Shown: piece by piece, positions 47,872 through 63,800 of the stretch | Position numbering within the stretch: position 1 is the stretch's first letter | Layout: each line of letters starts with the position of its first letter | NCBI GenBank assembly: GCA_964482735.1 | Contig: CAYZYV010000001.1 | Location: forward strand, 16,172-80,171 | DNA length: 64,000 nucleotides | Direction: 5' to 3' | DNA from: an uncultured Candidatus Saccharibacteria bacterium | GTDB taxonomy: Bacteria; Patescibacteriota; Minisyncoccia; Phycocordibacterales; UBA9973 | Notes under the pieces: generated by a model | What the model was told of the DNA's origin: nothing | Database searches by the model: none | What the model saw: the letters and a program-made list of their open reading frames with translations, nothing else | Program-made: the position numbers and the translations under genes

Positions 47872-47906
47872 ACGTTTTATATTTTTTAATTAAACTAATA
47901 ATAACT

Positions 47907-49412: not shown

Positions 49413-49426
49413 TGAACAAAAAACGA

Positions 49427-49458
49427 AGGACTCCGTCAAAACACGGAGCCTTTTTGTT
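49427..49458 (+). terminator. Terminator after tmk.
   Basis: ctccg-tcaaaaca-cggag followed by tttttgtttg. Confidence 0.5.
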
Positions 49459-49551
49459 TGCTGGCGTCCTTGAGCCAGAACGGTGGTCAGTCAAGCCCTG
49501 TAAGGACATTTCTAATACTTCTATCTTATCATTTTGACGGTCTTTGAGCAT

Positions 49552-49743
49552 CTATAAAATTACTTGATTTCCGTCTTGATCTAAAACTGATCCTTTTGGT
49601 GGTTTATACCTATCTGGATTTTGTTTTCTATCCTGATCAAGTAGCCATTGAAAAACTGCCACCACTCTATCAGTCTCTTCCTTGGTCCAATTTTTAGGAT
49701 CTCGTTTATCTTCATTATTCATAAAAAGTGACAAAAGTGACAC
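49552..49743 (-). CDS. Small charged hypothetical protein at the 3' end of the lexA-Thoeris operon.
   Basis: 63-aa ORF, same strand, 36 nt after the upstream gene. Confidence 0.25.
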   Translation of the reverse strand: MSLLSLFMNNEDKRDPKNWTKEETDRVVAVFQWLLDQDRKQNPDRYKPPKGSVLDQDGNQVIL

Positions 49744-49779
49744 AGGTTTGAGTATAAAAGTTACAAACTACTGTAACTT

Positions 49780-50322
49780 TCATAAACCCCAACTGGTGTA
49801 TGCCTCTGCCGAGTAATAATTTAAGGTTGTCTTTGGGTGGTTATTCATATCAAACTGAGAAATAGCATCTGCTATAGGCTCTTTTTTAAACGGAACATGA
49901 ATAATACCTACTGTTTCATTTTTAATTGCCTTAGCCAATTCGGCTGGCCATAAATGAGAAAGTTCAGATGGAGCCATTATCTTGTTGTATCCCGTATACA
50001 CAACTATGATTGGAATATTGCAGGTTTCAACAGCATATTTAATTTCAAAAGGAACCCAATCTGTATCATTTTTTGTTGTTGATCCTATTATCAATAGTAA
50101 ATTTTTAGAATTATTCATTCTTGATATTAACGACCTACGCAAAGTATCTTTTTTACTTGAATCCTTTACAGCTCCAGTTTTTTCATGACTGTTTACAAAA
50201 TTAAAGTCATCATCTCTCACTTTCCAACCCTTTAACAAACTATAATATTTCATATCAGAAGCTGTCGGATTTGTTTCTCCGTCAGCATGAAAAGCTATGT
50301 ATGTTCCGCTTCTATATGCCAT
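49780..50322 (-). CDS. thsB: TIR-like (DUF1863/MTH538-type) protein, ThsB-like.
   Basis: N-terminal TYIAFHADGE...D..YY..L..W pattern of the TIR-like flavodoxin-fold family. It is a paralog of 51168-51680. Confidence 0.6.
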   Translation of the reverse strand: MAYRSGTYIAFHADGETNPTASDMKYYSLLKGWKVRDDDFNFVNSHEKTGAVKDSSKKDTLRRSLISRMNNSKNLLLIIGSTTKNDTDWVPFEIKYAVETCNIPIIVVYTGYNKIMAPSELSHLWPAELAKAIKNETVGIIHVPFKKEPIADAISQFDMNNHPKTTLNYYSAEAYTSWGL

Positions 50323-50325
50323 ATA

Positions 50326-51171
50326 TTAGTTGTGAAGAGATTTTAGAAAATCTTGAATTTCTAATAAATTAACTTTCTCCTTATCTTCCTCTCGTATAAT
50401 AAGAACTAATTCTTTCGATATTGGTTCTACTCTTGAATTAATAATAAACGAGAGAAGGATAAGATTTATAGGTAATTTAAATGAAATACCAGGAACTCTA
50501 GCTAAATTAGTACCAATGACTGGCATTACAATAGTTTTCTGTTCTCCCTCCACTCTAATTTTATTCCAAAGATTTTGGAGTGAAGACCATAAATTATTAA
50601 TGTCAGATGTTGCCTTGAGATCGGATCCCATACGACTATAGGCACAACAAAAGAATTTTCTATTTAACCCAGACAGTGCTACAACGGTACCAATTTTATA
50701 TCTCTTATTTTTACCACGAGTCTTCGTACTATCTTCTTCTGACTCTTCATTTTTTAATAGTGCATCAAGATCATTATCAAGTTTATTTTGATTATTCTCA
50801 TACATAGAAACCAAAAATTGACCTTGCATACTATCCTTACTTACAACATCACCTATCTCTGTATCAAATGTGTCGCTGAAACCAATAACAAGGTGTCCAG
50901 ACTGGTCGAATATGTTTCCAATCTTAATCCCAATTTTTACATCTGGATTTGAAAAGTTTTCAGAGAAACTTCTTTTAGGCCAGGATCTTACAAAAGCAAA
51001 TACTAGACAAACAAAAACAGATATAAACCACCCCTTCCATTTATAGTTGGAAATAAAATCTGGGTAACTTGAGGTGATTATTTGAATAAATGAACTTATT
51101 ACACCTAGAGAGACGAAAAAATTCACACTCAATTTAACCACCATTCTTTTTGAGAAAATACTATTCATCAT
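50326..51171 (-). CDS. thsA: Two-TM plus Macro-like domain protein, ThsA of the type II Thoeris architecture.
   Basis: Two N-terminal TM helices. The C-terminal domain has IKIGNIFDQSGHLVIGFSDTF and IVMPVIGTNLARVP, which match the Macro-domain blocks (xAxVNAAN and IAFPAISTGxYGYP). Confidence 0.5.
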   Translation of the reverse strand: MMNSIFSKRMVVKLSVNFFVSLGVISSFIQIITSSYPDFISNYKWKGWFISVFVCLVFAFVRSWPKRSFSENFSNPDVKIGIKIGNIFDQSGHLVIGFSDTFDTEIGDVVSKDSMQGQFLVSMYENNQNKLDNDLDALLKNEESEEDSTKTRGKNKRYKIGTVVALSGLNRKFFCCAYSRMGSDLKATSDINNLWSSLQNLWNKIRVEGEQKTIVMPVIGTNLARVPGISFKLPINLILLSFIINSRVEPISKELVLIIREEDKEKVNLLEIQDFLKSLHN

Positions 51172-51680
51172 ATGCCGAGTTGGTTATAGGTTGCGTCTGT
51201 ATAGATATACCTATGGTCTTGATAATCAGGATGATTTTTCCATTTATGATAATTATCTGGGAAATGATCTAAAGCATATTGAATCGCCTTTAATTTAAAA
51301 GGTACTGAAATAGTGTACTTCCAGTCTTTAATAGCGGACGGACAAAGATTATCATCATAACCTTTTTTATTATTCAAATTAACAATTATGATTGGTATAT
51401 CTTTCTTTCTAGCAAGTTCTATTTCCCATGGTAAAAATTTTCTTAAGTACTTAGTATTATCTCCAACCAACAAAAGCATTTGCTTTGAGTTTGCCATTCG
51501 TACTCTAAGTTGAGCTTTTATCGACTCTTCGGTACTTGTATCTCTAGCACTATTTAGGTCGTGGGCATTTAAAAAATCAAATTCAATATGATCATGTTCT
51601 TTCCATGCAGTCATTAAACGATAATATTTCATATCATTGTCTCCATCAAAAGCAACATATGTTTTATTTTTGTAAGACAT
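51168..51680 (-). CDS. thsB: TIR-like (DUF1863-type) protein, second ThsB-like gene.
   Basis: KTYVAFDGDNDMKYYRLMTAWK N-terminus parallel to 49780-50322. It overlaps the downstream gene by 4 nt. Confidence 0.6.
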   Translation of the reverse strand: MSYKNKTYVAFDGDNDMKYYRLMTAWKEHDHIEFDFLNAHDLNSARDTSTEESIKAQLRVRMANSKQMLLLVGDNTKYLRKFLPWEIELARKKDIPIIIVNLNNKKGYDDNLCPSAIKDWKYTISVPFKLKAIQYALDHFPDNYHKWKNHPDYQDHRYIYTDATYNQLGI

Positions 51681-51685
51681 AATTT

Positions 51686-52303
51686 TTAATACAAATCACC
51701 AGGAAGTACGGCAACGACTACTCCTTGAATGATACAGTTATCTGTTAATATAATCGGCCTATGGTTTTTGTTTGTTGACTTCGGTTGAAGTACAACAGCA
51801 CCATTCGCTTTCTTGAACACTTTGACGGTTGCTTCGTCATTTATAAGAGCAACAACTTTATCATTATCTTCTGCTGTGTCTTGCTGTCGAATCAAAAGCA
51901 GATCACCGCTATTAATTCCTGCAAGATTCATAGAGTCTCCAATTGCACGCAAAAGAAAATATTTCGAACCCTTTTTAGCTAGACCTGTTGATACAGGAAT
52001 CAAAGCTTGAATATTTTCTTCAGCAAGAACAGGGGTACCACATGTCACAGCACCTACCAAGGGAACATCAACAGTGCTTATTGAAGCTGTTGTTTGTGAT
52101 CCGGTAAGGATAAGCTGTCGACCGATTTTCTTTATAAGTCCTGCATCGATTAGTCGATTAATTACAAGGCTTGCAGATCGTGGAGAAGCTCCACCTGTAA
52201 CCTCATTAATCTCGCTAAGCGTAGGGCTTTTGCCATAATGAACAATCTTATTACGGATAAGGGCAAATGCTTTTTTGTCTTTGTCGCTAAGGTTATTTTT
52301 CAT
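51686..52303 (-). CDS. lexA: LexA repressor (winged HTH plus S24 autopeptidase).
   Basis: Block-by-block similarity to LexA: LIRNKIVHYGKSPTLSEINE...LIKKIGR, VPLVGAVTCGTP, FLLRAIGDSMNLAGINSGD (Ser) and ATVKVFKK (Lys). The start was taken at ATG 52303. The ORF track uses TTG 52333. Confidence 0.85.
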   Translation of the reverse strand: MKNNLSDKDKKAFALIRNKIVHYGKSPTLSEINEVTGGASPRSASLVINRLIDAGLIKKIGRQLILTGSQTTASISTVDVPLVGAVTCGTPVLAEENIQALIPVSTGLAKKGSKYFLLRAIGDSMNLAGINSGDLLLIRQQDTAEDNDKVVALINDEATVKVFKKANGAVVLQPKSTNKNHRPIILTDNCIIQGVVVAVLPGDLY

Positions 52304-52361
52304 GGTATAAATAGTATAAATTACTCTATACAAAAAAGCAAGTATTTGCTATGATGTCCTT

Positions 52362-52985
52362 ATGGAAAATGACCAGAAAAAACCAATGACCGTCGGTGAA
52401 CTGGTGGCAAAGATACACCCTCCTGCTTTGAGTGAGAGGCAGATTTCTCAGTTCCAAGAAATTGGAAGAAAACACGCAGAAGCAATTGAAAATGTGAGGA
52501 AAATTGCTCAACCAATCATTGAGCAAATGAATCGCGTTCGAGAACAAGTAAAACTTTTTGAACCAGTAGAGTACCCTGAGATTGTATATCGTCGTCCTGT
52601 TGAATATGATATCCTGGAAGAACTTCAAGAGTTAAATAAAAACCACAAGCGACTTTTATCTTCAAGCCAAGACAGCAATGTAATTATTTATGACACAAGA
52701 AATGGATCACTCGATAAACATTTGGGAGGTAAACTTTTCTCATACGATCTCACTGAGAACGGTAAAAGAAAACAGTTGCTTGAGATACTTCTCGATCGTG
52801 GCACATATGTAAAAACAAAAGAACTTGAATCTATGCTTTCATCGTCAGCCGTAGCAAAAATAGTTCAGACTTTTAATGATTATGCGATCAATACCTTGAG
52901 ACTTCCAAAGAAAACAAAACTCATTCAAGGAAAGAAAGGATCTGGGTATCGTATCAATCCTAAAATACACATAGAAAAAGAATAA
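52362..52985 (+). CDS. Coiled-coil protein with an OmpR/PhoB-type winged-helix C-terminus but no receiver domain. It is divergent from lexA.
   Basis: C-terminal RKQLLEILLDRGTYVKTKELE...INTLRLPKKTKLIQGKKGSGYRI resembles the trans_reg_C wHTH. Confidence 0.4.
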   Translation: MENDQKKPMTVGELVAKIHPPALSERQISQFQEIGRKHAEAIENVRKIAQPIIEQMNRVREQVKLFEPVEYPEIVYRRPVEYDILEELQELNKNHKRLLSSSQDSNVIIYDTRNGSLDKHLGGKLFSYDLTENGKRKQLLEILLDRGTYVKTKELESMLSSSAVAKIVQTFNDYAINTLRLPKKTKLIQGKKGSGYRINPKIHIEKE

Positions 52986-53159: not shown

Positions 53160-54437
53160 ATGAATAAAAAACCTTCATGGAAAACAGGAGTTCGAGAGGT
53201 CAAAGACCTACTCCCTTGGAAAGAAAATCCAAGAAAAATCTCAAAGATCGCTATGGAAAAATTAAAAGAGAAAATCATTCAAAATGGTTTTCATAGTGTA
53301 ATTGTCATTGATACGGATAACACCATTATCTCAGGCAACCAAAGAAAAACTGCTTTGATACAGCTTGGTATCAAACAAGTAAATGTATTAATCCCTGATC
53401 GTAAACTATCAGACGACGAGCGTCGCAAGATTGCAATTGAAAGCAATATTAATGATGGTGAATGGGATTTTAAAAAGCTTAAATCTTTTGACCTAGAGCT
53501 TTTGCAGTTTGCTGGATTCAACGAAAAAGAACTGGTTAAGTTCTGGGACGAGGAAAAAGATACAAAAGACGACAAATTCGATGTCGATAAAGAGTTAAAG
53601 AAAATAGAAACACCACAAACAAAGCCGGGTGATCTTATCATCATGGGTGGTCATAAGTTGCTATGTGCCAGTTCTACCGATATGAATGCTGTCACCAAGC
53701 TATTCGGAAATGATAAAGCCACGGCTATCTATAATGATCCACCTTTTAATATCGGGCTTTCATACGACAAAGGTGTTGGTAATAAATCCAACTACGGAGG
53801 AACTTTTGACGATAACCAATCACCTGAAGAATATAAAGAATTTATTCGCAAGGTTCTAAAATCTTCACTAACCGTATCTACCAAAGATGTACACGTCGCT
53901 TTCTGGTGTGATGAAGCCTGGGTGTGGGTTTTTCAAACGCTCTATATGGAAAATGGAGTTAAGAACCGAAGACTTAATGTCTGGGTTAAAAACAATTCAT
54001 CACCGACACCAACTGTTGCGTTCAATAAGTGCCTTGAGTATTGCGTGTATGGCACGAAAGGATCTCCATATATTTCAGATCTCGTAAGAAATCTAAATGA
54101 AGTTCAAAACAAAGATTACGGAACTGGTAATCAACTTCTAGAAGATGTTTCAAACATTTGGGCGACAAAACGACTACCTTCAAATCAAATGGAACACGCA
54201 ACGAGTAAAAATCCTGAACTTCATCACAAGTTTATAATGCGTTGCACTAAACCAGGAGACATCATTTTTGATGCCTTCTCGGGTTCGGCAAGCACTATGA
54301 TCTGTGCAGAACAATTGGGTCGAAAAGTTTATTCCCTAGAGATAGAGCCTGTGTTTTGTGATTTAGCGATTCGTCGTTACGAAAAATTAACTGGTCACAA
54401 AGCACAAGTAATCAAGAACTTCTATGAAAAAGAATAA
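53160..54437 (+). CDS. ParB-like nuclease domain fused to a beta-class N6-adenine/N4-cytosine DNA methyltransferase (phage-type orphan MTase).
   Basis: ParBc N-terminus (IISGNQRKTALIQLGIKQVNVLI), motif IV DPPF (NDPPFNIGLSY) preceding motif I (FDAFSGSASTMICAEQLGRKVYSLE). Confidence 0.8.
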   Translation: MNKKPSWKTGVREVKDLLPWKENPRKISKIAMEKLKEKIIQNGFHSVIVIDTDNTIISGNQRKTALIQLGIKQVNVLIPDRKLSDDERRKIAIESNINDGEWDFKKLKSFDLELLQFAGFNEKELVKFWDEEKDTKDDKFDVDKELKKIETPQTKPGDLIIMGGHKLLCASSTDMNAVTKLFGNDKATAIYNDPPFNIGLSYDKGVGNKSNYGGTFDDNQSPEEYKEFIRKVLKSSLTVSTKDVHVAFWCDEAWVWVFQTLYMENGVKNRRLNVWVKNNSSPTPTVAFNKCLEYCVYGTKGSPYISDLVRNLNEVQNKDYGTGNQLLEDVSNIWATKRLPSNQMEHATSKNPELHHKFIMRCTKPGDIIFDAFSGSASTMICAEQLGRKVYSLEIEPVFCDLAIRRYEKLTGHKAQVIKNFYEKE

Positions 54438-54831
54438 ATTTCAAGATCAGTTTCTTGATGAATTACGGAAAGTGCCAATTGTTCAAGTAGCTTGTGAAAA
54501 AACAGGATTATCTCGCAACAGTGTTTATCGGTGGCGAAAGGAAGATAAAGATTTTCTCAAGAAAATGGAAGATGCAATTTCTGAGGGTGTTGCTCTGGTA
54601 AATGACATGAGTGAAAGTCAATTACTTACGCTTATTAAAGAGAAAAACTATCCTGCAATTAGTTTTTGGCTTCGTCATCGAAATGATAATTACAAAAACA
54701 AACTTGAGATTACTACTAAAGATGATAACGAGGAACTAACACCGTCACAAGCGAAAATTGTAAAGCAGGCACTTAAACTCGCAAAAATTACCAAGTCGAA
54801 ATCTATTAAAAATATTAATCGCAAAAAATAA
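54424..54831 (+). CDS. Putative terminase small subunit (HTH protein overlapping and preceding terL).
   Basis: HTH segment (VACEKTGLSRNSVYRWRKED). It is positioned immediately upstream of the large terminase. Confidence 0.45.
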   Translation: MKKNKFQDQFLDELRKVPIVQVACEKTGLSRNSVYRWRKEDKDFLKKMEDAISEGVALVNDMSESQLLTLIKEKNYPAISFWLRHRNDNYKNKLEITTKDDNEELTPSQAKIVKQALKLAKITKSKSIKNINRKK

Positions 54832-54833
54832 TT

Positions 54834-56330
54834 ATGACCAAAATAATTCCAAAAGCACTGGTTAATACGATGATAAAAGATCGTTCAGTGCGAACATCAA
54901 TTACAAAAGATAGCTTCCTGTATTTTTTCCATTTCTATTATGCACACTATGTGAAGTACGAAACGGCAGACTTTCAAAAAGAGATTATCCATAATCTCGA
55001 AAAGAGCACCACTGAAAACTTATATGTGGTGGCGTTTCGTGGATCAGGAAAATCTACCATGGTGACAACTGCATATCCGATTTGGGCAATCCTCGGAAAA
55101 CAGCAAAAGAAGTTTTGTATTATCTTTTGCCAAACACGAGCACAAGCAAAACAACACATGATGAATATTCGTACCGAACTTGAAGGTAATGATGTTCTTA
55201 AAAAAGACCTCGGACCTTTTCAAGAAGAAAGTGACGAATGGGGTTCTTTCTCTCTTGTATTCAAAAAGCACGGAGCAAGAATTACTGTAGCTTCTGCCGA
55301 GCAAAGTATTCGTGGTATTCGCCATAACGAACACCGCCCAGACTTAATAATCTGTGACGACGTTGAGGATGTGCAATCGACCAAAACTCGTGAGGGTCGA
55401 GAGAAGACCTATAACTGGCTCCGTGGTGAAGTTATACCTGCTGGAGATAGGAATACTCGACTAATAATTGTTGGAAACTTACTCCACGAAGATTCGTTGT
55501 TAATGCGTATCAAAGACGAAATTGCAAAAGGTAAAGCAAAAGGAATATTTAAAGAATATCCATTGATTGATAAGAACAGCGTTTGTTTGTGGTCTGGGAA
55601 GTACGCAACAGAAAAAGATCTTGAGGATGAGAAGTTAAAAGTCGCTAGTGAAATATCTTGGCAGCGAGAATACTTGCTCCGTATTATTCCGAGCGATGAT
55701 CAGGTTATCTACCCAGAATGGATTCAATTTTATGACGAACTGCCAGGAGAAAAACACCGAGGCTATCGTGGTACTTATGCAGGTGTAGATCTTGCGATTT
55801 CAGCTTCAGAAACAGCCGATGATACTGCTGTGGTATTTGCTCATATTTATTCACGACGTGAGAAATTGCGAATCTATATTCTACCTAACCCTATTGCAAA
55901 GAAACTTAACTTTCCTGCACAGGTGGATCTTATGAAAGATATTCGTAACACCTTACTTACAAGAAGTTCTGATGAATTGTTTGTTGAAAGTGTTGCATAT
56001 CAAGAAGCCCTACCACAAATGCTTGAACATCATGGAGTTAAAGCAACTGCAATCAAACCCAAAGGAGATAAACGAACACGACTTGCTCTTACTTCTACTG
56101 CAATAAAATCAGCAAAGATTTTATTCCCAAGACAAGGGTGTGAAAGACTTATCGAGCAACTTGTTGGATTTGGAGTAGAAAAGCATGACGACTTAGCAGA
56201 TGCATTTTCTCTCTTGATTAACTCAACCATGGACAAGCATTCAGGAGAATCAACATGGCTCATGTACTGGATGGGAGACGATGAACCTTTGTACTTTAGG
56301 GATTATGTAGATATGGATCAAAAAAAGTAG
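54834..56330 (+). CDS. Phage terminase large subunit.
   Basis: Walker A (VVAFRGSGKSTMV), Walker B (LIICDDVED) and C-terminal RNaseH-like nuclease residues (YAGVDLAISASETADDTAV). Confidence 0.85.
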   Translation: MTKIIPKALVNTMIKDRSVRTSITKDSFLYFFHFYYAHYVKYETADFQKEIIHNLEKSTTENLYVVAFRGSGKSTMVTTAYPIWAILGKQQKKFCIIFCQTRAQAKQHMMNIRTELEGNDVLKKDLGPFQEESDEWGSFSLVFKKHGARITVASAEQSIRGIRHNEHRPDLIICDDVEDVQSTKTREGREKTYNWLRGEVIPAGDRNTRLIIVGNLLHEDSLLMRIKDEIAKGKAKGIFKEYPLIDKNSVCLWSGKYATEKDLEDEKLKVASEISWQREYLLRIIPSDDQVIYPEWIQFYDELPGEKHRGYRGTYAGVDLAISASETADDTAVVFAHIYSRREKLRIYILPNPIAKKLNFPAQVDLMKDIRNTLLTRSSDELFVESVAYQEALPQMLEHHGVKATAIKPKGDKRTRLALTSTAIKSAKILFPRQGCERLIEQLVGFGVEKHDDLADAFSLLINSTMDKHSGESTWLMYWMGDDEPLYFRDYVDMDQKK

Positions 56331-56357: not shown

Positions 56358-57722
56358 TTGCATAGACTTAGCAAAACGCTCAAATTGCGTCATCAATATA
56401 ATATGGAGACGCAATATATAAGCAATTTAGGAGTAAGGACAGAGGTACCCAAAACCAAGATTCGGTATGTCCTGTACGCTCGAAAATCAACCGAATCAGA
56501 CGAAAAACAAGCCCTGTCTATCGAATCACAGGTTAAGGAAATGCTTGCTATAGCCGACCGTGATAGTTTAACAGTTGTTGATATTAGACGTGAATCTCAC
56601 TCGGCTAAAGAATCTGGGCAACGACCAGTGTTTAGAGAGGTATTAGAGGATGTAAGACGTGGCAGGTATAACGGTATACTCACCTGGGCACCTGATCGTC
56701 TATCTAGAAACGCAGGCGACCTCGGATCGGTTGTTGATCTAATGGACGAAACAAAACTTTTAGAAATTCGTACATACGGTCAACATTTCAAAAATTCACC
56801 AAACGAGAAATTCCTTTTGATGATTTTGTGTTCCCAGGCTAAACTCGAAAACGACAATAAAAGTATCAACGTAAAGCGAGGCTTACGAACGAGATGCGAA
56901 ATGGGACTTCGCCCTGGTCCTGCTGTTGTTGGATATCTCAACGAAAAACGAATGGATAAAAAATGTGAGGTTGTGATAGACCCAGAACGAGCACCGATAG
57001 TTAAACAAATGTTTGAAAAAGTGGCATACGAAAAATGGTCAGGCAGAAAACTATATCATTGGCTTAAGTTTGATCTTAATTTCAAAACTCGTAGTGGTAA
57101 CAAAGGTCTTACTCTTAGTAATATTTATCTCATACTTCAAAATCCATTTTATTATGGGGTTTTTGAATATCCACGAAAAAGCGGAAACTTTTATACAGGT
57201 AGACATGAACCAATAATCAATAAAGAACTTTTTGAATTGGTTCAAGAGCAAGTTAAAAGCCAAGCATTACGGACCCAAGAACCAAAAGAATTTGCTTTTA
57301 CAAAAATGATGACTTGTGGGCTTTGTGGATCAGGAATCTGTGCTGACGAAAAGTTTAAAAAGTTAAAAGACGGATCAGTGAATAGACATATCTATTATGG
57401 ATGTACTAGATCTAAAGATAAAAATTGTAAGTGTGGGTATATAAACGAGATTGAATTAATACAGCAATTTGAAAAGTTAATTGAACAAGTAAATATCAAT
57501 GAGATAGGAATGAAAGAGAAGATTAAATATGAAGTTGAGCGAATCAAACGCTTTAATCAATCTGTATTAAATACAAAACAGCAGATACAAATAAAAGACG
57601 TAGACATTAGAGACTACGCCAAATTTATTTTGAAAGAAGGTTTGATTGAGGAGAAACGAGAATTATTAACTTGTTTTAAGAGCAAGATTTTATTAAAGAA
57701 TAAAGAAATTTGTCTTAATTAA
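56358..57722 (+). CDS. Large serine recombinase (resolvase catalytic domain, recombinase domain and zinc ribbon).
   Basis: YVLYARKSTESDEKQALSIESQ (catalytic Ser), ILTWAPDRLSRN and the Cys cluster CGLCGS...YYGCTRSKDKNCKCGY. Confidence 0.85.
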   Translation: MHRLSKTLKLRHQYNMETQYISNLGVRTEVPKTKIRYVLYARKSTESDEKQALSIESQVKEMLAIADRDSLTVVDIRRESHSAKESGQRPVFREVLEDVRRGRYNGILTWAPDRLSRNAGDLGSVVDLMDETKLLEIRTYGQHFKNSPNEKFLLMILCSQAKLENDNKSINVKRGLRTRCEMGLRPGPAVVGYLNEKRMDKKCEVVIDPERAPIVKQMFEKVAYEKWSGRKLYHWLKFDLNFKTRSGNKGLTLSNIYLILQNPFYYGVFEYPRKSGNFYTGRHEPIINKELFELVQEQVKSQALRTQEPKEFAFTKMMTCGLCGSGICADEKFKKLKDGSVNRHIYYGCTRSKDKNCKCGYINEIELIQQFEKLIEQVNINEIGMKEKIKYEVERIKRFNQSVLNTKQQIQIKDVDIRDYAKFILKEGLIEEKRELLTCFKSKILLKNKEICLN

Positions 57723-60700
57723 GAATTGCGCACAATTTCTTTTTCTTCTTTATTTAAACCATACACTTCCATAACATAATCGTCTATCTGTTTTTCTAGG
57801 TTATCAGTATCTACAATTCCATCATTCTTTAATCTTATTACTTGTTCAACTAAATCAGATATCTTATTTACTAATTCTTCAGATTCAGAGGTAATTTTAG
57901 GAATAGGTAAAATCTTAAGTGTTGTAATTAGTATTTGTGGATGCAAATCTACACCCTTCAATCTTTTTGAATTATAATAATAATTTAAAACGGACGAATT
58001 CATACACGCAAGAATAAAAGACAACCTATATTTGTTTTTGAATTGATCCTTTAAATAGGTACTATGGATCGAGTTTGAAACAAAATATTGCGATCTATCA
58101 ATACTCCCTTTTAGTTGAGCACTATTTTGTGATGTTATAATTTTTTCAGGTTGTAAAAATATTTCTCTATCTCTAAGTTGCACCTTTCTTAATTCTTCGA
58201 CATCACTTATATATTTTCTTGCTTCATTTATATCGTAACAAAGGTACATCTCTTCTGCTGAAAAATGATATCTATCTAGCTTATAAGTACCAGAAACACC
58301 AGCAAACTTAACATACCGATCATCTATTTTTAGATTGCTAAGCATTTTTTCTCTAATATAAGGAACTATTCCATCTCGTACCTCACAAATATCAGCAAGT
58401 ATCTGTTGATCTTTTTCAATTTTTCTCAAAAGTGAATGATCAAATTTTGATATGTTAATGTTTATTTCCTCATTTTCTTCAAAAACGCTTTGCTGTACTT
58501 GAATAAAATCTAAGTTGCTGGATTTATAAAAATCTGGCTTATTACAAATTTTTATTGAATTACCAACTAAATGTTTTGAAAAAAGCACAATCATAAATTC
58601 GTCTTTTGCTGATTCAAAACCCGCATCCTTTCCTAAATATATTATTTCATTTATTGATAATCTTTTTAAAACATATTCCTGAAAGGCTCCATGATTTCTT
58701 TTTCGAGAAAAAAGTCGATAAGGAATTATATAGCAAATATTAAAATCTTCTTTTGCAACACGATGAGCCAACTCAACAAATATCGCCGCTGTATCCTGTC
58801 TACCAGATTTTACACTTTCATACGTATCCTTAAAGAATTTTCTCTCTTCATCATTTAGGTCCGCATTGTACGGAGGATTGCCGATTATAACATCAAATTT
58901 ATCTTGTAACCCAAACATCCACTCAGCATCAAACCAGTTATTTGAATGATTTCCGAACGGATTCCATGTTGTAAGTTTCAGGGTTAGTTCTCCTGTATTT
59001 TTTCCAAACGCTGATACTGTTTTCTCTAATATATCTTTTTGAGCATTAGTAAATCTAATTTTCAGTTCATTTTTTCTCTGACTATTACAAGAGAAGTACT
59101 CTGACATTATCTTTGATAGTTCTGTAATTCCTGAATGATCATCGAAAAGATTTGTTGCAGTTGATTTAGGTAGAGAAACAAGTGTATTTGCACATACGAA
59201 TTTAAAGTCCAGGTTTGGAAGTGGTTCTATCCCTCGATTTGGTTTATTGTCATCTATTTCAGATTCAACAACCAAGGTCAAAAAGCATCGCAGACGAGAT
59301 ACATCTACAGCGATTGGCTGAATATCTACTCCAAAGATTGAGTTCTTTATAACATCAAGTTTTCTGGTGTAATCAAATGGATTTTGCTTTACCTCATTGA
59401 TTATTTTTTGTTTATATAAATCTGGAACTCCTTTTAGTTTCCTTTCTAGCCAAAGAGTACAGTCAGGGTCAACTTGTTGTAGTATGTAAACTATCTTTTG
59501 AAGTGCACCGATAGGATAAGCTCCTGATCCACAAGCAGGGTCTAGAATTTTTAATGATTCAATAGCATCGATTATTTGCTCTTTTTCTTTTTGAACTAAC
59601 GGATATTCTGTATCGTCAGTAAGATCATAACTAACCAAAGCTGTTAACTTTTTCTCTTCGATGCCTGTCTTGGTCTTAAAATATTCAATCAAAGATTGAT
59701 CTACCATGTACTCAACAATCTGTCTTGGCGTATAGAAGCTACCTGTATCTTTCTGTTCATTTTTGCCAGTTTCAGAATCAATTTTCTTTGCGAGAAGGTT
59801 TTCAAAAATCTTTCCAAGCATTTCAGGATCAACTGAAAGCTCTTGATCAAAAACGGTGTTTTCATCAATAGTGAAATTGTATGTCTCTAGAAGTTCAAAA
59901 AACTCTTTAAACCACTTATCACTTATTTTAAGAGTATTGATGTATTTTGAAGCAAAGGTACCACGATCAAGTTCATAATAATCATCAGATTGTGGATTAA
60001 ACAAACCTCCGTTTAGATACGGCACCTTGTCAAAAAGCTCATTTCGAATATCACGAGCGTCGATACTTGTATTCAAAACGCCAAAGAAAAGAGGTTCAAG
60101 AGTATTGTGATAGTAATTATCAGATACAACTTTTGAAGATAAGATCTCGTCAGGAACAAGTTGTCCATTATCTGATTTTTTCTGCTTCAAAAACCAACAA
60201 AACATCGCACGACCAATAAGTCGAACAGCAAAGCTTTTTCGCGTATTTATATCTGTTTCTGATACTCCAGGAAGAATTAGGTTTTGATCTTCTATTGAAA
60301 CCAATTCATCAAAGAATTTTGCAACTTCTAGGTAGAATTGCTTATTTACAACTTCAACAGAAAACCGATTAAGCAGATCATCTACATCCTTAATTTTCCC
60401 TTTTTTAATAAGTTGTTGTTCTGGAGTTTTAACCTTTGCATTAGTTCCTAGATAAAAAGAATAGCGTCGTGCGTTTGAGTACTTTTTAACAACTTTATTC
60501 TTATCATTAAGATCGAGAGATATTGTAAGGTATGAAAAACGATAATTATCAGAATCTTTGTTTTTAAAGATGACTAATGCTCTATGGATCCAGTGATCAG
60601 CGAGAATTTTGAATGCATCAGTGGCGATAGCTACTCGGGGATCCTTATCGTGATTGTGATCCATTTCCAAAACATGCAAATCTAATGATTCACAAAAACC

Positions 60701-60841
60701 CAAAATCTTTGCTCTGGTTATCTCTTTATATCTATCTTTGTTAATTACAATATCCTCTTCTTTGAGATTAAAATCTTCAGGAAGAAAGTCTTGAATAAAA
60801 TTAACAAAAGATTCTGAATTGTATTTTTCGTTTAATTTCAT
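57719..60841 (-). CDS. Gamma-class N6-adenine DNA methyltransferase of the Eco57I/PglX/DrmMI type with a C-terminal target-recognition region.
   Basis: Motif X GSFYTPRQIVEYMV, motif I ILDPACGSGAYP and motif IV IIGNPPYNAD. A ~350-aa region follows motif IV. The start overlaps the upstream gene's stop (ATGA). Confidence 0.8.
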   Translation of the reverse strand: MKLNEKYNSESFVNFIQDFLPEDFNLKEEDIVINKDRYKEITRAKILGFCESLDLHVLEMDHNHDKDPRVAIATDAFKILADHWIHRALVIFKNKDSDNYRFSYLTISLDLNDKNKVVKKYSNARRYSFYLGTNAKVKTPEQQLIKKGKIKDVDDLLNRFSVEVVNKQFYLEVAKFFDELVSIEDQNLILPGVSETDINTRKSFAVRLIGRAMFCWFLKQKKSDNGQLVPDEILSSKVVSDNYYHNTLEPLFFGVLNTSIDARDIRNELFDKVPYLNGGLFNPQSDDYYELDRGTFASKYINTLKISDKWFKEFFELLETYNFTIDENTVFDQELSVDPEMLGKIFENLLAKKIDSETGKNEQKDTGSFYTPRQIVEYMVDQSLIEYFKTKTGIEEKKLTALVSYDLTDDTEYPLVQKEKEQIIDAIESLKILDPACGSGAYPIGALQKIVYILQQVDPDCTLWLERKLKGVPDLYKQKIINEVKQNPFDYTRKLDVIKNSIFGVDIQPIAVDVSRLRCFLTLVVESEIDDNKPNRGIEPLPNLDFKFVCANTLVSLPKSTATNLFDDHSGITELSKIMSEYFSCNSQRKNELKIRFTNAQKDILEKTVSAFGKNTGELTLKLTTWNPFGNHSNNWFDAEWMFGLQDKFDVIIGNPPYNADLNDEERKFFKDTYESVKSGRQDTAAIFVELAHRVAKEDFNICYIIPYRLFSRKRNHGAFQEYVLKRLSINEIIYLGKDAGFESAKDEFMIVLFSKHLVGNSIKICNKPDFYKSSNLDFIQVQQSVFEENEEININISKFDHSLLRKIEKDQQILADICEVRDGIVPYIREKMLSNLKIDDRYVKFAGVSGTYKLDRYHFSAEEMYLCYDINEARKYISDVEELRKVQLRDREIFLQPEKIITSQNSAQLKGSIDRSQYFVSNSIHSTYLKDQFKNKYRLSFILACMNSSVLNYYYNSKRLKGVDLHPQILITTLKILPIPKITSESEELVNKISDLVEQVIRLKNDGIVDTDNLEKQIDDYVMEVYGLNKEEKEIVRNS

Positions 60842-63800
60842 AGTGCGATTAATTCTTCAGAGAGAACAATGAGTTTTCCATCATCATTTGCTCTATCCGC
60901 AGTTTCAAAGATACTTTCAAGGTATTTGCTTGGAATAAGCTCTTTAAGTTCAAGGTACGCCTTCTCTGGATTAGTTTTATCAATACGAAGTTCTACAATC
61001 TCTTTAAGTACTCCATTTGGAAGAGCATCAAGATCCTTAATTGCTCTAATAATATCCAAACATAGGTCTTTTGCTTGAGGGTATAACTCACTAAGCAATT
61101 TAACCCTGTTGAGCGCATCTTGCTTTCGACCACCATCGACAGAAGCTTTTGTATTGTCTTTAAAGATATGCTCTTTAGCCATTTTATAGATTGGATCAAA
61201 GTTTACTGTTGTCTGTAGTGATTCTTCTGAATCAATAACTTGATTAAACAAAGGAAGTGCGGCTTGTGGAGATACTATTTGAACTGTTTCAGGAGTATTT
61301 CCAAATGCGAATACATAATTTCCGCTTTTCTTTGCAAAAGCGACCACACCACTGATATCTTTGGTATTTCGAGCAATTCTTGATCGGTGCGGAATTCGAG
61401 AAATCTGATCCATTATTTTCTTATCGTCCTTAATCTTGAGCCAGGTATTACGATATGGTGCATCCCAAGACAAACTTTCATTTTTACTATTTTCTTCTTT
61501 GTATTGCTTAGCAAAGTAGTTCTTCAGATCTTCTTCTGATGTAAGAGTTTTTGTATCTTCACCTAAAAGTGTATGGATCAAATCCATCTTAAGAGTTGAA
61601 ATTGCTTTTGTTCGAGTTTCAAGCTCTCCGGTAAGTGTCGGGAAGAAGTTGTAAATATACAATTCATCAAAAACTTTTCTGTTGATACGGTTGATACGAC
61701 CAACACGTTGAATAACACGAGTTGGGTTATATGGAATATCGTAGTTTATGATTGCTCCTGCTCTATGCAAGTTAAACCCTTCGGAAATTGCATCAGTGGC
61801 AATAATGATATCGAAGTCATTAGACTGTTTTGGTTCTTCAAGTCCAGCATCAAAGTTTGATCTGATTATTTTCTTATTCTCATCTGAAGCATCTTCTGAG
61901 CTATATTTAAAGACGCGAGCAAATCCATCCTTTTGTAGTTTTTGGAATACATAGTTTGCAGTATCAGAGAACTCTGTAAATACAACAATCTTTCTGTTTG
62001 AATTTTCTGCTAGTGATGTTGCAATCTTTTGTTTAAAGAATTCAAACTTTGGATCACTCGTCTTATCAGACCAGTCTTCTTCAATCCCTTTAAGAAGTGC
62101 AATATCGTGTCGTAGATGATCACCAAATTGCGGTTGTAGTTCGCTTAATGGAATTCTAATAAGTCCTTTATCTTCAAGTTTGTTGAGAGTTTCTTCTAGT
62201 TCTTTTTCATCAAGTTCACTTAGATATTCTGAATCTGGCAATACACCTTTTTTAAATATTGGAACTTCCTGTCGATTTTCATACCAATCAAGCATAGCTT
62301 CAGAAGAAGTAATCATGTTTTTTAACGACAACTTAAATGCTCCAACAGAACTCTCAAATCGTCGAACTAAAAGTCTTCGCATAAACCGAGCAAGGTTGCT
62401 TTGTCCTTGTTGGATACGCTGAAGTTTCTCTTCTGCTGACATTCCATCTTCATCATCTTGCTCAATTAACTTTTCAAGGAATTTTGAACCTTGGTTAATA
62501 TATGAAGCTGGCTTATATCGTGCACCGATAAAACTAGTACTCCGATCTTCTGGGGCAATTTTCTCAAGAGTATTCACATAAAGATCAAACATATCACCAA
62601 GATCATACTCGAGAAGTTGTGGATCTTTCACTTTTGCAAAAGCAACACCTTGAGCTTTCAGGTCTTCCTTGTATTCTTCAATTTCCTCCAAATCAAGTCG
62701 TGATCTTCGAATAATCAACGGCTCAATCATTTTTCTTAATTCATCTGCAATCGAATGTAGCTCAACTTTGATTTCAGAATTATCTGATTCATCTTTTGTA
62801 CTCTTTCTTAGATCTCGACGGACGGCTTTGTATCGTTTAAAAAGCATATGGAAAGACATACTTAGGTTTTCCACTGTTCTAATCGTTGATTGTCCTGGAG
62901 TACTAAAGAGCTTAATCAAGGCGTAAATATCTTTTGGATCGTTATTGAAAGGAGTTGCAGATAGAGCCATTACATAGTTACCCGCACAGAGTCTGTGCAG
63001 AACTTTGTAATTGTCAGTATCTTCATTTCGATGTTTGTGGGCTTCGTCTAATATAACCAAAAGTCTACCCTCATCATCACCGTGTCGTTGTAATGCTTCT
63101 TCTATTTTTCCAGTTGAATATACAAAACCTTTAAAATCAAATTCAGACATGTAGTCTTTCCATTGATTCTCGAGGTGAGGTGGTGCAATAATGATTGTTT
63201 TATAACCAAGGTTGTGAGCAATCGCAGAAGCAATAATACTTTTTCCTAGACCTACCACATCGGCAATGATTACACCTCCGAACTTCTTAATACGATCAAT
63301 ACCTAGATTGATAGCATCTTTTTGATATTTAAGATCAGAAAATTTACCCCCTGTAATATGTTTTGGGGTTTTCATGTTTTCTATTTCAGTAACAGCAAAG
63401 TATTCATTAAGTACTTTGTAATACATCAAAAGTGGATTTGGCAAAGCATAAAGCCAAATCTTGTCTTTCACTTCCTTGATAAAGGTTTCTGCTGAATCAA
63501 GATCAGTAATGACTATGTTGTCAGGATCATTCCACACTGATTCAAATCGTTTAACATCATCTTCGTAATAATGTTTTTCCATTAAAATACGGTTATGTTC
63601 TCCTTGACCCTTTAATCCTGAAAAGGTTAGGTTGCTTGAACCTTCAATTACAATTCCTGGAGTAATTCCGTTAGTTGAAAATTCAAATTTGTTGTGAAGA
63701 ATATAAAACTTTGAGTGGTTTGCTTGTGCTGTTTTTTTAATCTGCAAGCTACCATCTTTGATTTTATCTAAAAATATCTCAAAAGCTTTCTGAGATTCAT

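What the first reader, a model, noticed from the sequence alone, without database searches (positions are those of the whole stretch)
49552..52333. Type II Thoeris-like module (TIR-like / 2TM-Macro / TIR-like) transcribed as an operon led by lexA
Four minus-strand genes are packed with 5-nt, -4-nt and 3-nt spacings: lexA, DUF1863 TIR-like, 2TM-plus-Macro-like, DUF1863 TIR-like. A small 63-aa ORF follows. The TIR-Macro-TM combination matches the type II Thoeris architecture (ThsB TIR signal producer plus a membrane Macro effector). Having full-length LexA (wHTH plus S24 Ser/Lys dyad) as the first gene suggests SOS/DNA-damage-responsive control of an abortive-infection-type system. This is analogous to cI-rexAB-style coupling of immunity to a repressor. 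The divergent neighbour (52362-52985) is a wHTH protein, and the 58-bp shared intergenic region is a candidate operator.
Basis: partly seen in the sequence, partly recalled or inferred. Interest (0 to 1): 0.7.

Follow-up and report, generated by a model that had tools for sequence, protein, structure and literature searches.

The report
LexA-led defence slot on mobile island
The Thoeris anti-phage genes are real, but they are one interchangeable cargo behind a LexA-type repressor on a roughly 15-kb mobile island that is widespread in ultra-small (CPR/Patescibacteria) bacteria and carries CBASS, Pycsar or other defences in the same slot.

Summary
lexA (51686-52303), thsB, thsA (2TM+Macro), thsB and a small ORF lie head to tail on the minus strand with 5, -4 and 3 nt spacings. 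Profile and structure-database matches make this a canonical type II Thoeris.

The interpretation needs re-framing. This lexA is not shown to be the host SOS regulator. It is the repressor of a mobile element inserted at the 3' end of tRNA-Gln. Strains with a 98.7% identical backbone have an empty site whose breakpoint is 4 nt from the element end I inferred independently.

The backbone is a LexA-family repressor divergent from an OmpR-type wHTH protein, then ParB-methylase, TerS, TerL and a large serine recombinase. It has no capsid genes. It recurs in more than 100 Patescibacteria loci.

In 58 readable loci the gene after lexA starts about 7-16 nt from its stop. The cargo is CBASS (22), Thoeris II (5), other TIR or caspase-like sets (12), Pycsar, PDC candidates or unknowns. 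Backbones about 90% identical carry Thoeris, CBASS, Pycsar or an unknown pair.

A conserved, probably leaderless promoter is overlapped by a palindrome (GTATA-N8-TATAC) found only there: 32 of 32 occurrences in 745 kb. Co-transcription with lexA is therefore very likely. SOS induction is plausible but untested.

The parts
49459..49551 (.). Element terminus (attR arm). It is a conserved ~90-bp end reading ...GGCTCAAGGACGCCAGCA| on the minus strand and carrying GCTCAARGAC-like repeats. The breakpoint against the empty site lies at 49459-49463.
   Evidence: The same end occurs in 13 loci with 13 different flanks. Homology to empty-site strains stops at 49463. There is no Rfam hit and no covariation, so it is a DNA site and not an RNA.
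49552..49743 (-). Small conserved ORF (63 aa from GTG; gene callers give 56 aa from ATG 49722). It forms the right border of cargo slot 1 and its function is unknown.
   Evidence: Homology to L008 resumes at 49780, right after the cargo. tblastn finds it in about 21 loci. It has no Pfam, PHROG, NCBIfam or PADLOC family.
49780..50322 (-). thsB2, a TIR-like protein (180 aa).
   Evidence: PF08937 9.5e-18; PADLOC ThsB 1.2e-67; FEI motif at residue 92.
50326..51171 (-). thsA, the type II Thoeris effector. It has two N-terminal hydrophobic helices (about residues 10-34 and 47-65) and a Macro domain (80-260).
   Evidence: PF20016 2.1e-54; PADLOC ThsA 6.9e-83; hydropathy; aligns to solved type II ThsA Macro domains 8R66, 8V6Q and 9UUZ at E about 1e-17.
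51168..51680 (-). thsB1, a TIR-like protein (170 aa).
   Evidence: PF08937 7e-17; PADLOC ThsB 9.8e-70; WEI motif at residue 85.
51686..52303 (-). Element-encoded LexA-family repressor (205 aa): wHTH plus S24 peptidase, with a Cys-Gly scissile bond and a Ser/Lys dyad.
   Evidence: TIGR00498 129.2 bits against cutoff 110.95. End-to-end alignment to solved LexA structures, E 5.5e-20. Ser and Lys invariant in 46 of 46, Gly invariant, and Cys (42) or Ala (4) before it. An identical protein sits on the CBASS-carrying element L008.
52304..52361 (.). Divergent control region. PlexA is -35 TTGCTT, 17 nt, -10 TATACT, with 9 nt to the ATG (leaderless or nearly so). Pp207 is TATACA, 17 nt, TG-n-TATGAT, with 6 nt to the ATG. 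The palindrome GTATA-N8-TATAC (52314-52331) overlaps both promoters. A second palindrome AGCAA-N4-TTGCT lies at 52337-52350.
   Evidence: Family-wide conservation. The Pp207 site was flagged. Each palindrome occurs once in 64 kb, expected 0.07 and 0.05. All 32 exact palindromes in 744,666 bp lie within 60 nt upstream of lexA.
52362..52985 (+). p207: N-terminal long helices plus a C-terminal OmpR/PhoB-type winged-helix DNA-binding domain. It is followed by a terminator-like hairpin at 53029-53044.
   Evidence: AF2 mean pLDDT 78 (about 90 for residues 105-207). Foldseek PDB hits are CovR, PhoP, ToxR, CadC and AdeR, TM up to 0.73. It has no sequence family. Terminator scan.
53160..54437 (+). ParB_N-domain fused to an N6/N4 DNA methyltransferase.
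   Evidence: PF01555 3.6e-28; phrog_498 2.7e-72.
54424..54831 (+). Small terminase-like HTH protein (TerS).
   Evidence: phrog_4044 4.2e-11; weak HTH and Sf6-terminase Pfam hits.
54834..56330 (+). Large terminase (TerL).
   Evidence: phrog_38 4.2e-77; TIGR01630 41.7 bits against cutoff 41.65; Terminase_6C/6N weak hits.
56403..57722 (+). Large serine recombinase (439 aa as called by gene callers; the mechanical ORF starts at 56358).
   Evidence: Resolvase 9.2e-20, Recombinase 1.1e-15, Zn_ribbon_recom 5.4e-6; phrog_95 integrase 1.8e-61.
57719..60841 (-). Type IIG restriction-modification enzyme (Eco57I-type). It lies in the variable region between the recombinase and the tRNA-side end of the element.
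   Evidence: PF07669 3.7e-26; PADLOC REase_MTase_IIG 8.4e-73. It is collinear at 88-91% nt in L070 and L071, except 57787-58869.
60838..64000 (-). SNF2-family (DrmD-like) helicase, cut by the window end. By comparison with L070, the tRNA-Gln and the other element end (attL) lie about 450 nt beyond the window.
   Evidence: PADLOC DrmD 5.6e-35. L070 is homologous up to window position 64000, with tRNA-Gln 446 nt further on.

Best explanation
The module is a canonical type II Thoeris system. By the published mechanism, ThsB TIR proteins make His-ADPR on infection, and the ThsA Macro domain binds it and triggers its two-helix membrane effector.

Here it occupies the first cargo slot of a mobile element of about 15 kb. 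The element integrates at the 3' end of tRNA-Gln through a large serine recombinase. It also encodes TerS, TerL, a ParB-methylase, an OmpR-type wHTH protein (p207) and a self-cleaving LexA-family repressor, but no virion genes.

The lexA gene is the element's own switch. It is read from a conserved, essentially leaderless promoter that sits back to back with the p207 promoter. One family-specific palindrome (GTATA-N8-TATAC) overlaps both promoters. Whatever sits 5-16 nt after the lexA stop codon is transcribed with it, so the defence cassette is expressed whenever the element keeps itself repressed. That is the integrated, quiescent state.

Because the operator overlaps the -10 and spacer of PlexA, LexA most likely represses its own operon. 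RecA-stimulated self-cleavage, triggered by DNA damage or by replicating phage DNA, would then raise expression of the defence cargo. It would also release p207 and, through it or by read-through, the methylase-terminase-recombinase genes.

Shown here: gene content, element borders, the empty site, cargo swapping, conservation of the promoter and palindrome, and the catalytic residues. Inferred: co-transcription, LexA binding to the palindrome, the direction of regulation, RecA dependence, and any packaging by a helper phage.
For: - **Thoeris II identity:**. The mechanism is taken from bioRxiv 10.1101/2024.01.03.573942.
- **LexA family:**
- **Precise cargo replacement:** an identical LexA and a 92% identical backbone carry CBASS instead of Thoeris, swapped exactly between the lexA stop and the small ORF. 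Pycsar or an unknown pair sits on other backbones about 90% identical.
- **Cargo survey:** 58 loci, 50 with a recognised defence system or PADLOC candidate system. The first cargo ORF starts 7-16 nt after the lexA stop in nearly all.
- **Linkage of lexA to the backbone:** ParB-methylase, TerS, TerL and recombinase accompany lexA down to 50% identity.
- **Empty site:** it lies at tRNA-Gln, with the breakpoint 4 nt from the independently inferred end.
- **tRNA target:** tRNA-Gln (16) or tRNA-Trp (6) lies downstream of the recombinase, always with its 3' end facing the element. A conserved dyad-related arm follows the tRNA.
- **Promoter and operator:**
- **No structural genes:** none in any family member or IMG/VR relative.
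Against: - No transcript data exist. A promoter-like site inside lexA (51890-51863, 10 of 12 matches) could drive thsB1-thsA-thsB2 independently, although promoter-like sites in the region are not more frequent than in shuffles (19 against 14.9 +/- 4.1).
- The consensus scan did not flag PlexA, because its -35 matches only 3 of 6. I infer PlexA from conservation.
- The left half of the palindrome is lost in the most distant relatives (L049, L050). The right half coincides with the -10, so part of the conservation could be promoter rather than operator.
- Only +/-10 kb around each element was searched for further operators, so a host regulon is not excluded.
- About a third of loci have no serine recombinase next to TerL.
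- No replication gene and no helper phage were found.
Confidence: 0.72

Rival explanations
1. This is the host's genuine SOS LexA. The Thoeris genes are ordinary members of the chromosomal SOS regulon.
For: It passes the NCBIfam lexA equivalog cutoff and aligns end to end with solved LexA proteins. Public sources name relatives 'repressor LexA'. No other lexA or recA lies in the 64-kb window. A published study reports an SOS network in Patescibacteria (PMID 28618189, cited in PMC8565304), but I could not read it.
Against: The gene lies inside an insertion that is missing from strains with a 98.7% identical backbone. It travels with terminase and recombinase genes in essentially all relatives down to 50% identity. 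The candidate operator is found only at its own promoter in 745 kb. Identical LexA proteins sit on elements at different chromosomal sites.
Confidence: 0.08
2. Lambda-like polarity. LexA activates or is needed for its own promoter (like CI at PRM), so the defence cargo is expressed only in the quiescent state and shuts off when the repressor is cleaved.
For: The arrangement is analogous to cI-rexAB in lambda (established knowledge). The layout is divergent with a second regulator (p207). The lexA mRNA appears leaderless, like the cI mRNA from PRM (compared with established knowledge).
Against: The palindrome lies in the spacer and -10 of PlexA, which is the usual position for repression. Known LexA proteins repress their own genes (PMC8565304). 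There is one main operator, not a tripartite OR.
Confidence: 0.15
3. The cargo is transcribed mainly from its own promoter inside the 3' part of lexA. On this view the tight spacing reflects only compaction of a small genome, not regulatory coupling.
For: The best promoter-like match of the region lies at 51890-51863 on the minus strand, about 180 nt upstream of thsB1. Patescibacteria genomes are densely packed.
Against: Unrelated cassettes (Thoeris, CBASS, Pycsar, PDC candidates) all start 7-16 nt after the same stop codon. That points to selection for insertion into an expressed slot. Promoter-like sites are not enriched over shuffles. No terminator follows lexA.
Confidence: 0.12
4. The region is a decayed prophage remnant with no present function as a mobile unit, and the lexA-Thoeris adjacency is a frozen accident.
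For: Only part of a phage gene set is present (repressor, methylase, TerS, TerL, integrase), with no capsid, tail or lysis genes.
Against: The same reduced gene set, with intact ORFs and conserved ends, recurs in 47 genome loci and in more than 532 metagenome stretches that encode a relative of the recombinase. It sits at different sites with sharp common termini. Empty sites and tandem copies exist. Cargo is exchanged between backbones about 90% identical.
Confidence: 0.04

Closest known systems
Type II Thoeris (Bacillus amyloliquefaciens Y2 ThsA/ThsB; His-ADPR signalling)
   Same: ThsA has two N-terminal TM helices and a C-terminal ThsA-type Macro domain, with adjacent TIR-like ThsB. Strong profile matches and alignment to the solved Macro domain 8R66 support this.
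   Different: Two ThsB genes flank ThsA. The host is a CPR bacterium. The system sits as cargo behind a LexA-family gene on a mobile element. The signal molecule and the phenotype are not tested.
Lambda cI-rexAB and other prophage defence genes co-transcribed with the immunity repressor
   Same: An element-encoded, RecA-sensitive S24 repressor is transcribed divergently from the mobilisation genes, with abortive-infection genes immediately downstream in the same unit. The repressor mRNA is apparently leaderless.
   Different: The DNA-binding domain is a LexA wHTH, not a Cro/CI HTH. The element is not a phage because it has no virion genes. The slot is a swappable hotspot rather than a fixed gene pair. 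Autoregulation is probably negative.
Defence hotspots of P2-like phages and P4-like satellites (PMC9122126) and defence-carrying PICIs
   Same: Otherwise collinear mobile elements carry highly variable anti-phage cargo between conserved flanking genes. The element size (about 10-18 kb), integrase, divergent regulators and lack of structural genes resemble satellites.
   Different: The backbone differs (large serine recombinase, TerS plus TerL, ParB-methylase, LexA, OmpR-type wHTH). No primase or replication module was found and no helper is known. The hotspot is fused transcriptionally to the repressor gene. The hosts are Patescibacteria, which are not covered by the four satellite families of SatelliteFinder (PMC10085698).
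DNA-damage-responsive regulators of immune operons: CapH/CapP, CapW, CapK/CapS (bioRxiv 10.1101/2022.04.27.489752; PMC11662680; PMC13373217)
   Same: A regulator gene placed directly upstream of diverse immune operons (CBASS and others) would couple their expression to DNA damage or ssDNA.
   Different: Here a single LexA-family protein, presumably needing RecA*, would do the job of the repressor-plus-protease pair. It is co-directional and co-transcribed with the cargo, and it doubles as the mobile element's own switch.
E. coli lexA-dinF operon (established knowledge)
   Same: lexA is the first gene of an autoregulated operon whose downstream gene is thereby SOS-inducible.
   Different: That operon is chromosomal and fixed, and it is not a defence cassette. 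The operator there is CTGT-N8-ACAG, against GTATA-N8-TATAC here.

Membership tests
Type II Thoeris | ThsA effector with a C-terminal ThsA-type Macro domain | tested here: met
   PF20016 2.1e-54, residues 80-260; PADLOC ThsA 6.9e-83; PDB 8R66, 8V6Q and 9UUZ at E about 1e-17.
Type II Thoeris | Two N-terminal transmembrane helices in ThsA | tested here: met
   Kyte-Doolittle 19-mer windows of at least 1.6 at residues 10-34 and 47-65. The feature is defined in 10.1101/2024.01.03.573942.
Type II Thoeris | At least one adjacent TIR-like ThsB | tested here: met
   Two copies: PF08937 7e-17 and 9.5e-18; PADLOC ThsB 9.8e-70 and 1.2e-67.
Type II Thoeris | Catalytic glutamate in ThsB and His-ADPR pocket residues in the Macro domain | tested here: inconclusive
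   Both ThsBs have a (W/F)EI motif, but I did not align them to a characterised ThsB. Pocket residues (D100, N133, Q135, S194, R240, Y277 of 8R66) were not mapped.
Type II Thoeris | Phage-triggered His-ADPR production and protection from phage | not testable with these tools
   Needs an experiment.
LexA (TIGR00498 / SOS repressor) | N-terminal LexA wHTH plus C-terminal S24 peptidase in one roughly 200-aa protein | tested here: met
   TIGR00498 129.2 bits against cutoff 110.95. S24 2e-26; LexA_DNA_bind 21.1 bits, just below the gathering score of 23.7. Residues 5-200 align to E. coli LexA 4-196.
LexA (TIGR00498 / SOS repressor) | Ser/Lys dyad and a cleavable Ala/Cys-Gly bond | tested here: met
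   Ser and Lys in 46 of 46; Gly in 46 of 46; Cys in 42 and Ala in 4. Cys-Gly is the UmuD cleavage site by established knowledge.
LexA (TIGR00498 / SOS repressor) | Palindromic operator in its own promoter (autoregulation) | tested here: inconclusive
   GTATA-N8-TATAC overlaps the PlexA spacer and -10. It is an exact match in 32 of 45 promoters and occurs nowhere else. Binding was not tested.
LexA (TIGR00498 / SOS repressor) | Controls a chromosomal regulon of DNA-repair genes | tested here: not met
   No further operator in the 64-kb window or in 745 kb of loci. The gene is absent from near-identical strains. The test is limited, because whole genomes were not available.
Temperate-phage CI-type immunity repressor with linked defence (cI-rexAB) | Repressor on a mobile element, divergent from the mobilisation genes, with defence genes downstream in the same orientation | tested here: met
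Temperate-phage CI-type immunity repressor with linked defence (cI-rexAB) | The element is a complete phage with virion and lysis genes, and the repressor has a Cro/CI HTH domain | tested here: not met
   No structural genes in any member. The DNA-binding domain is a LexA wHTH.
Phage satellites (PICI, cfPICI, P4-like, PLE) | Integrated element of 7-20 kb with an integrase and att sites, regulators, and no full virion gene set | tested here: met
   Ends, empty site and tRNA target. Size is about 15 kb. No capsid, portal or tail genes.
Phage satellites (PICI, cfPICI, P4-like, PLE) | Own replication module (primase or Rep plus an origin) | tested here: not met
   No primase, helicase or Rep family among the backbone proteins. 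p207 is a wHTH protein.
Phage satellites (PICI, cfPICI, P4-like, PLE) | Packaging-redirection gene such as TerS | tested here: met
   TerS phrog_4044 4.2e-11 and, unusually, also TerL phrog_38 4.2e-77.
Phage satellites (PICI, cfPICI, P4-like, PLE) | Induction and transfer by a helper phage | not testable with these tools
   No helper was identified. TerL relatives of at least 51% identity in IMG/VR are all the same element.
Mobile-element defence hotspot (P2/P4-type) | Unrelated defence systems at one position between conserved genes of collinear elements | tested here: met
   Thoeris, CBASS, Pycsar and an unknown pair sit on backbones about 90% identical. There are 12 cargo classes in 58 loci.

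The most novel reading that the evidence does not exclude
These elements are a previously undescribed family of phage-satellite-like islands of CPR/Patescibacteria. They carry their own small and large terminase but no capsid. They integrate at tRNA-Gln or tRNA-Trp through a serine recombinase. They use a RecA-sensitive LexA-family repressor both as the island's switch and as a universal expression driver for swappable abortive-infection cassettes. Phage-induced RecA activation would then boost immunity and mobilise the island into a helper's capsids at the same time. If so, these islands may be a main vehicle of signalling-based immunity in these tiny-genome bacteria, and the unrecognised cargos in the slot are a ready list of candidate new defence systems.
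Probability: 0.35. Interest if true: 0.85.

Novelty: new variant of a known kind. Interest (0 to 1): 0.68.

Why it matters
CPR/Patescibacteria have genomes under 1 Mb, mostly lack CRISPR, and yet show high defence density, with Paceibacteria the most diverse (PMC12259885). This work identifies a concrete and very common vehicle for that immunity, and a simple rule: whatever follows the element's lexA is defence.

The rule can be used to find new systems. Candidates include the recurrent 303-323-aa first gene, the 752- and 795-aa membrane proteins, and the PDC candidates.

The finding also offers a one-protein, RecA-linked alternative to the CapH/CapP and CapW regulators of immune operons. It warns that many genes annotated 'LexA' in Patescibacteria are mobile-element repressors, which bears on reconstructions of their SOS network. 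Finally, a terminase-bearing element with no capsid genes in uncultured episymbionts would extend satellite biology to a new part of the tree.

Tried and rejected
- **Structured RNA or tRNA fragment at the terminus.** I asked whether the GC-rich conserved terminus (49459-49551) is one. There is no Rfam hit at E<=1 over 49300-57900, and RNAalifold found 16 pairs with no compensatory change. I rejected this in favour of a protein-binding att arm.
- **Second host lexA.** There is none in the window. The only extra LexA-like gene, in L018, is a LexA-C5-methyltransferase fusion inside the element's variable region, so it is not a plain host lexA.
- **The 2017 Patescibacteria SOS paper (PMID 28618189).** It is not held, and citing papers give no motif.
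- **DNA beyond the window's right end.** A look-up with the type IIG enzyme found nothing on record. A look-up with the recombinase returned only a 1.9-kb contig. Close relatives L070 and L071 solved this instead.
- **Full-phage relatives or a helper, via TerL in IMG/VR.** Only the same element turned up, and the next hits drop to 22-24% identity.
- **Virion genes in larger family members and in the sub-family without a recombinase.** None were found.
- **Promoter scan.** The number of promoter-like sites is not above shuffles, so the scan alone proves nothing.
- **Palindrome AGCAA-N4-TTGCT.** It is unique in the window, but its halves coincide with the -35 of PlexA and the TG-extended -10 of Pp207. 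I do not claim it as an operator.

Full report
**1. The observation**

The minus strand between 49552 and 52303 carries five consecutive ORFs:
- lexA-like, 51686-52303. The family-conserved and gene-caller start is ATG 52303. The mechanical ORF begins at TTG 52333.
- thsB1, 51168-51680.
- thsA, 50326-51171.
- thsB2, 49780-50322.
- A 63-aa ORF, 49552-49743.

The intergenic region to the divergent gene at 52362 is 58 bp.

Profile searches are unambiguous:
- Peptidase_S24 2e-26, ThsB_TIR 7e-17 and 9.5e-18, ThsA_Macro 2.1e-54.
- PADLOC ThsA 6.9e-83, ThsB 9.8e-70 and 1.2e-67.

ThsA has two N-terminal hydrophobic helices. Its Macro domain aligns with the solved type II ThsA Macro domains, including 8R66. 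This matches the published definition and mechanism of type II Thoeris: the TIR protein makes His-ADPR, the Macro domain binds it, and the effector has two TM helices (bioRxiv 10.1101/2024.01.03.573942).

The repressor passes the NCBIfam lexA equivalog cutoff (129.2 against 110.95). It aligns end to end with solved LexA proteins.

**2. What the surroundings show**

The plus strand to the right encodes:
- a 207-aa protein with no sequence family;
- a ParB_N-methyltransferase fusion;
- a small terminase-like protein and a large terminase (phrog_38, 4.2e-77);
- a large serine recombinase.

AF2 on a 42-sequence alignment, followed by Foldseek, shows that the 207-aa protein ends in an OmpR/PhoB-type winged-helix DNA-binding domain. 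Beyond the recombinase lie a type IIG restriction-modification enzyme and a DrmD-like SNF2 helicase.

**3. The lexA gene belongs to a mobile element with a swappable cargo slot**

An exact-protein look-up found a contig (L008) encoding the identical 205-aa LexA and the same backbone. In L008, a CD-NTase and a Cap15-type effector replace Thoeris.

At the DNA level the two loci are 92% identical from window 57707 to 51678, which is 8 nt past the lexA stop. They are unrelated across the cargo. Homology resumes (90% identity) at 49780, right after the last cargo gene, and runs to 49459.

A scan of one genome per species found 47 loci encoding relatives at 50-99% identity. Apart from three records labelled otherwise (Gammaproteobacteria, Bacteroidota and Treponema, the last being a 39% partial match), all are Patescibacteria or unclassified MAGs (Paceibacteria, Campbell-, Nomura-, Taylor- and Uhrbacteria and others). 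In nearly all of them lexA is divergent from ParB-methylase, TerS and TerL, usually followed by the recombinase. The protein database holds 1,720 clusters at E<=1e-10, commonly annotated 'repressor LexA'.

**4. Ends, empty site and target**

The small-ORF side ends at ...GGCTCAAGGACGCCAGCA| (window 49459). The same end occurs in 13 loci with 13 different flanks.

Contigs that encode the identical flanking tmk protein come in two forms. One carries the element. Several others (L059-L065) are 98.7% identical over more than 10 kb, and in them tmk is followed directly by tRNA-Gln(CTG), a LOG-family gene, pyrG and ftsX/E. Homology to the window stops at 49463, inside the last few nucleotides of the tRNA 3' end.

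A metagenome scan with the recombinase found more than 532 relatives. Among 25 loci with a tRNA downstream of the recombinase, 16 have tRNA-Gln and 6 have tRNA-Trp. All 25 have the tRNA's 3' end facing the element, at 1.2-9.3 kb.

Directly after the tRNA, about 20 of 23 loci share an arm (ACTTGAGC-TA-GCTCAAAG or ACTCGTGC-TA-GCACGAG) that is absent from the empty site. CTTGAGC is the reverse complement of the GCTCAAG at the other terminus, which is the dyad expected of a serine-integrase attP. In L013 and L011 the small-ORF-side end abuts this arm directly, which indicates tandem copies.

The unit therefore runs from the tRNA to the small-ORF-side end. L070 and L071 are 88-91% identical to the window right through the RM and SNF2 genes to position 64000, and they have tRNA-Gln 446 nt further on. 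The window's element is thus about 15 kb (49459 to roughly 64446) and is cut by the window edge.

No member, and no IMG/VR relative of TerL at 51% identity or more, has capsid, portal, tail or lysis genes.

**5. The slot is a defence hotspot**

I called the ORFs after lexA in every locus. I annotated representatives with PADLOC and propagated the labels by BLAST. The tally over 58 loci is:

| Cargo class | Loci |
|---|---|
| CBASS (types with 2TM, patatin+E2, SAVED-HNH, or HORMA+2TM) | 22 |
| other TIR-like sets, often with an 8xMP membrane protein | 7 |
| Thoeris II | 5 |
| caspase-like (+TIR) | 5 |
| PDC-M48B | 5 |
| only the small DUF2188/PDC-S16 protein | 4 |
| nothing recognised | 4 |
| PDC-M36A | 2 |
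| Pycsar | 1 |
| HEPN | 1 |
| PDC-M50 | 1 |
| protease-type | 1 |

The first cargo ORF begins 7-16 nt after the lexA stop in nearly all loci, whatever the cargo.

Two further variable regions exist:
- Between TerL and the recombinase: T5orf172, SNase, bPH, DUF4352, and an NgoPII RM pair in L020.
- Between the recombinase and the tRNA: RM systems.

**6. Regulation**

Upstream of lexA the family shares TTGCTT, 17 nt, TATACT and then 9 nt to the ATG, so the mRNA is probably leaderless. The divergent p207 gene has TATACA, 17 nt, TG-n-TATGAT and 6 nt to its ATG.

The palindrome GTATA-N8-TATAC (52314-52331) overlaps the spacer and -10 of PlexA and the -35 of Pp207. It occurs once in the window, with 0.07 expected. 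Across 744,666 bp of non-redundant loci all 32 exact copies lie within 60 nt upstream of lexA.

The LexA family keeps Ser, Lys and the Gly of the scissile bond in 46 of 46 sequences. The preceding residue is Cys (42) or Ala (4). By established knowledge Cys-Gly is the UmuD cleavage site.

No terminator lies between lexA and thsB1. A terminator-like hairpin follows p207.

I therefore infer three things. First, lexA and its cargo form one transcript. Second, LexA represses both divergent promoters from the shared operator. Third, self-cleavage would raise cargo expression and release p207 and the mobilisation genes. None of this is shown experimentally. A PRM-like polarity and an extra internal promoter (51890-51863) remain possible.

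**7. Comparison with what is known**

The Thoeris module is a member of a known family. The coupling resembles four known arrangements:
- lambda cI-rexAB;
- the P2/P4 and PICI defence hotspots (PMC9122126);
- the DNA-damage-responsive regulators CapH/CapP, CapW and CapK/CapS placed upstream of immune operons;
- the lexA-dinF operon.

It differs from each in these ways: the repressor type (a LexA wHTH), the direct transcriptional fusion of the hotspot to the repressor gene, the backbone (serine recombinase, TerS plus TerL, and no replication module found), and the host lineage.

Searches of the held literature found no description of this element. They did show that CPR, especially Paceibacteria, have high defence density and diversity. 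A 2017 study of the Patescibacteria SOS network exists but could not be read. Its LexA motif should be compared with the palindrome found here.

**8. Verdict**

'Operon led by lexA' is very probably right, but the lexA is a mobile-element repressor. The notable result is the general one: a widespread, tRNA-targeting, terminase-bearing island of Patescibacteria whose lexA gene drives a swappable defence cassette. I rate it a new variant of a known kind, with interest 0.68.

Noticed in passing
L018:2327-3904 (minus strand), between tRNA-Gln (1471-1542) and the recombinase: A 525-aa protein fuses a complete LexA module (Ala-Gly site, GDSM, Lys) to a C5 cytosine DNA methyltransferase. It lies next to a 187-aa ORF. 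It may be an RM system whose methylase carries a self-cleaving LexA domain.
   Followed up: partly
window 57787-58869 (C-terminal part of the type IIG RM gene): This stretch, which holds the TaqI_C-type specificity domain, has no homology to L070 or L071, although the rest of the gene and element is 88-91% identical. That suggests swapping of the target-recognition domain.
   Followed up: partly
L008:8232-9143, L015:10622-11533, L070, L043, L126, L138 (first or second gene after lexA): A recurrent 303-323-aa protein has no Pfam or PADLOC family. It precedes different partners: CBASS, a 752-aa multi-TM protein, or a trypsin-like protease. It may be a new sensor or regulator.
   Followed up: partly
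L017, L018, L022, L027, L030, L039, L044, L045, L047, L048, L020: gap between TerL and the recombinase: This is a second variable slot of 0.8-1.6 kb (5 kb in L020). It carries T5orf172, a secreted SNase, bPH, DUF4352 or membrane proteins. In L020 it holds an SMC-like ATPase plus a C5 methylase and an NgoPII endonuclease.
   Followed up: yes
L012, L014, L016, L029, L057 (about 0-6 kb beyond TerL); also L038: This sub-family has no serine recombinase next to TerL. A 302-317-aa unknown protein, a reverse transcriptase (RVT_1, 2.5e-28) and a ResIII helicase lie there instead. How these members integrate is unknown.
   Followed up: partly
L013:12804 onward and about 17568-18425; L011:13326 onward: The small-ORF-side end of one element is followed directly by the tRNA-side arm of another (...GACGCCAGCA|AACTTGAGCTAGCACGAG...). 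L013 also has a second partial copy. The elements occur in tandem.
   Followed up: partly
L097, L114, L116, L118, L119, L128: In a sub-group of elements tRNA-Trp(CCA), not tRNA-Gln, lies downstream of the recombinase. The same conserved arm follows the tRNA, which indicates a second attachment site.
   Followed up: partly
window 52304-52361 and the same region in all loci: Both divergent genes (lexA and p207) have their -10 element only 6-9 nt from the ATG and no Shine-Dalgarno sequence. Both mRNAs may be leaderless.
   Followed up: partly
first gene after lexA in about 13 loci (for example L017:10625-10870, L010, L012, L027, L049, L074, L077): A small DUF2188 protein (PADLOC candidate PDC-S16, 75-85 aa) often sits between lexA and the main cargo. 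In four loci it is the only recognised gene.
   Followed up: partly
L057:10999-11949, L049, L016, L018, L076: TIR-like proteins are paired with a PF24838 '8xMP' octameric membrane protein (1.1e-45), sometimes with a caspase-like protein. These TIR-plus-membrane-effector sets are distinct from Thoeris II.
   Followed up: partly
window 53029-53044: A terminator-like hairpin (CGCCTTTAAATAGGCG followed by a T-run on both strands) separates p207 from the methylase-TerS-TerL-recombinase genes. Those genes therefore need their own promoter or anti-termination, and p207 (an OmpR-type wHTH) is a candidate activator.
   Followed up: no
window 38990-49412 (left flank): The host flank is a nucleotide-metabolism cluster (thyA, folA, dCMP deaminase, tmk) plus a MacB/HlyD-type ABC exporter and an ECF sigma factor. 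The tmk terminator (49429-49450) is bidirectional and abuts the element end.
   Followed up: no
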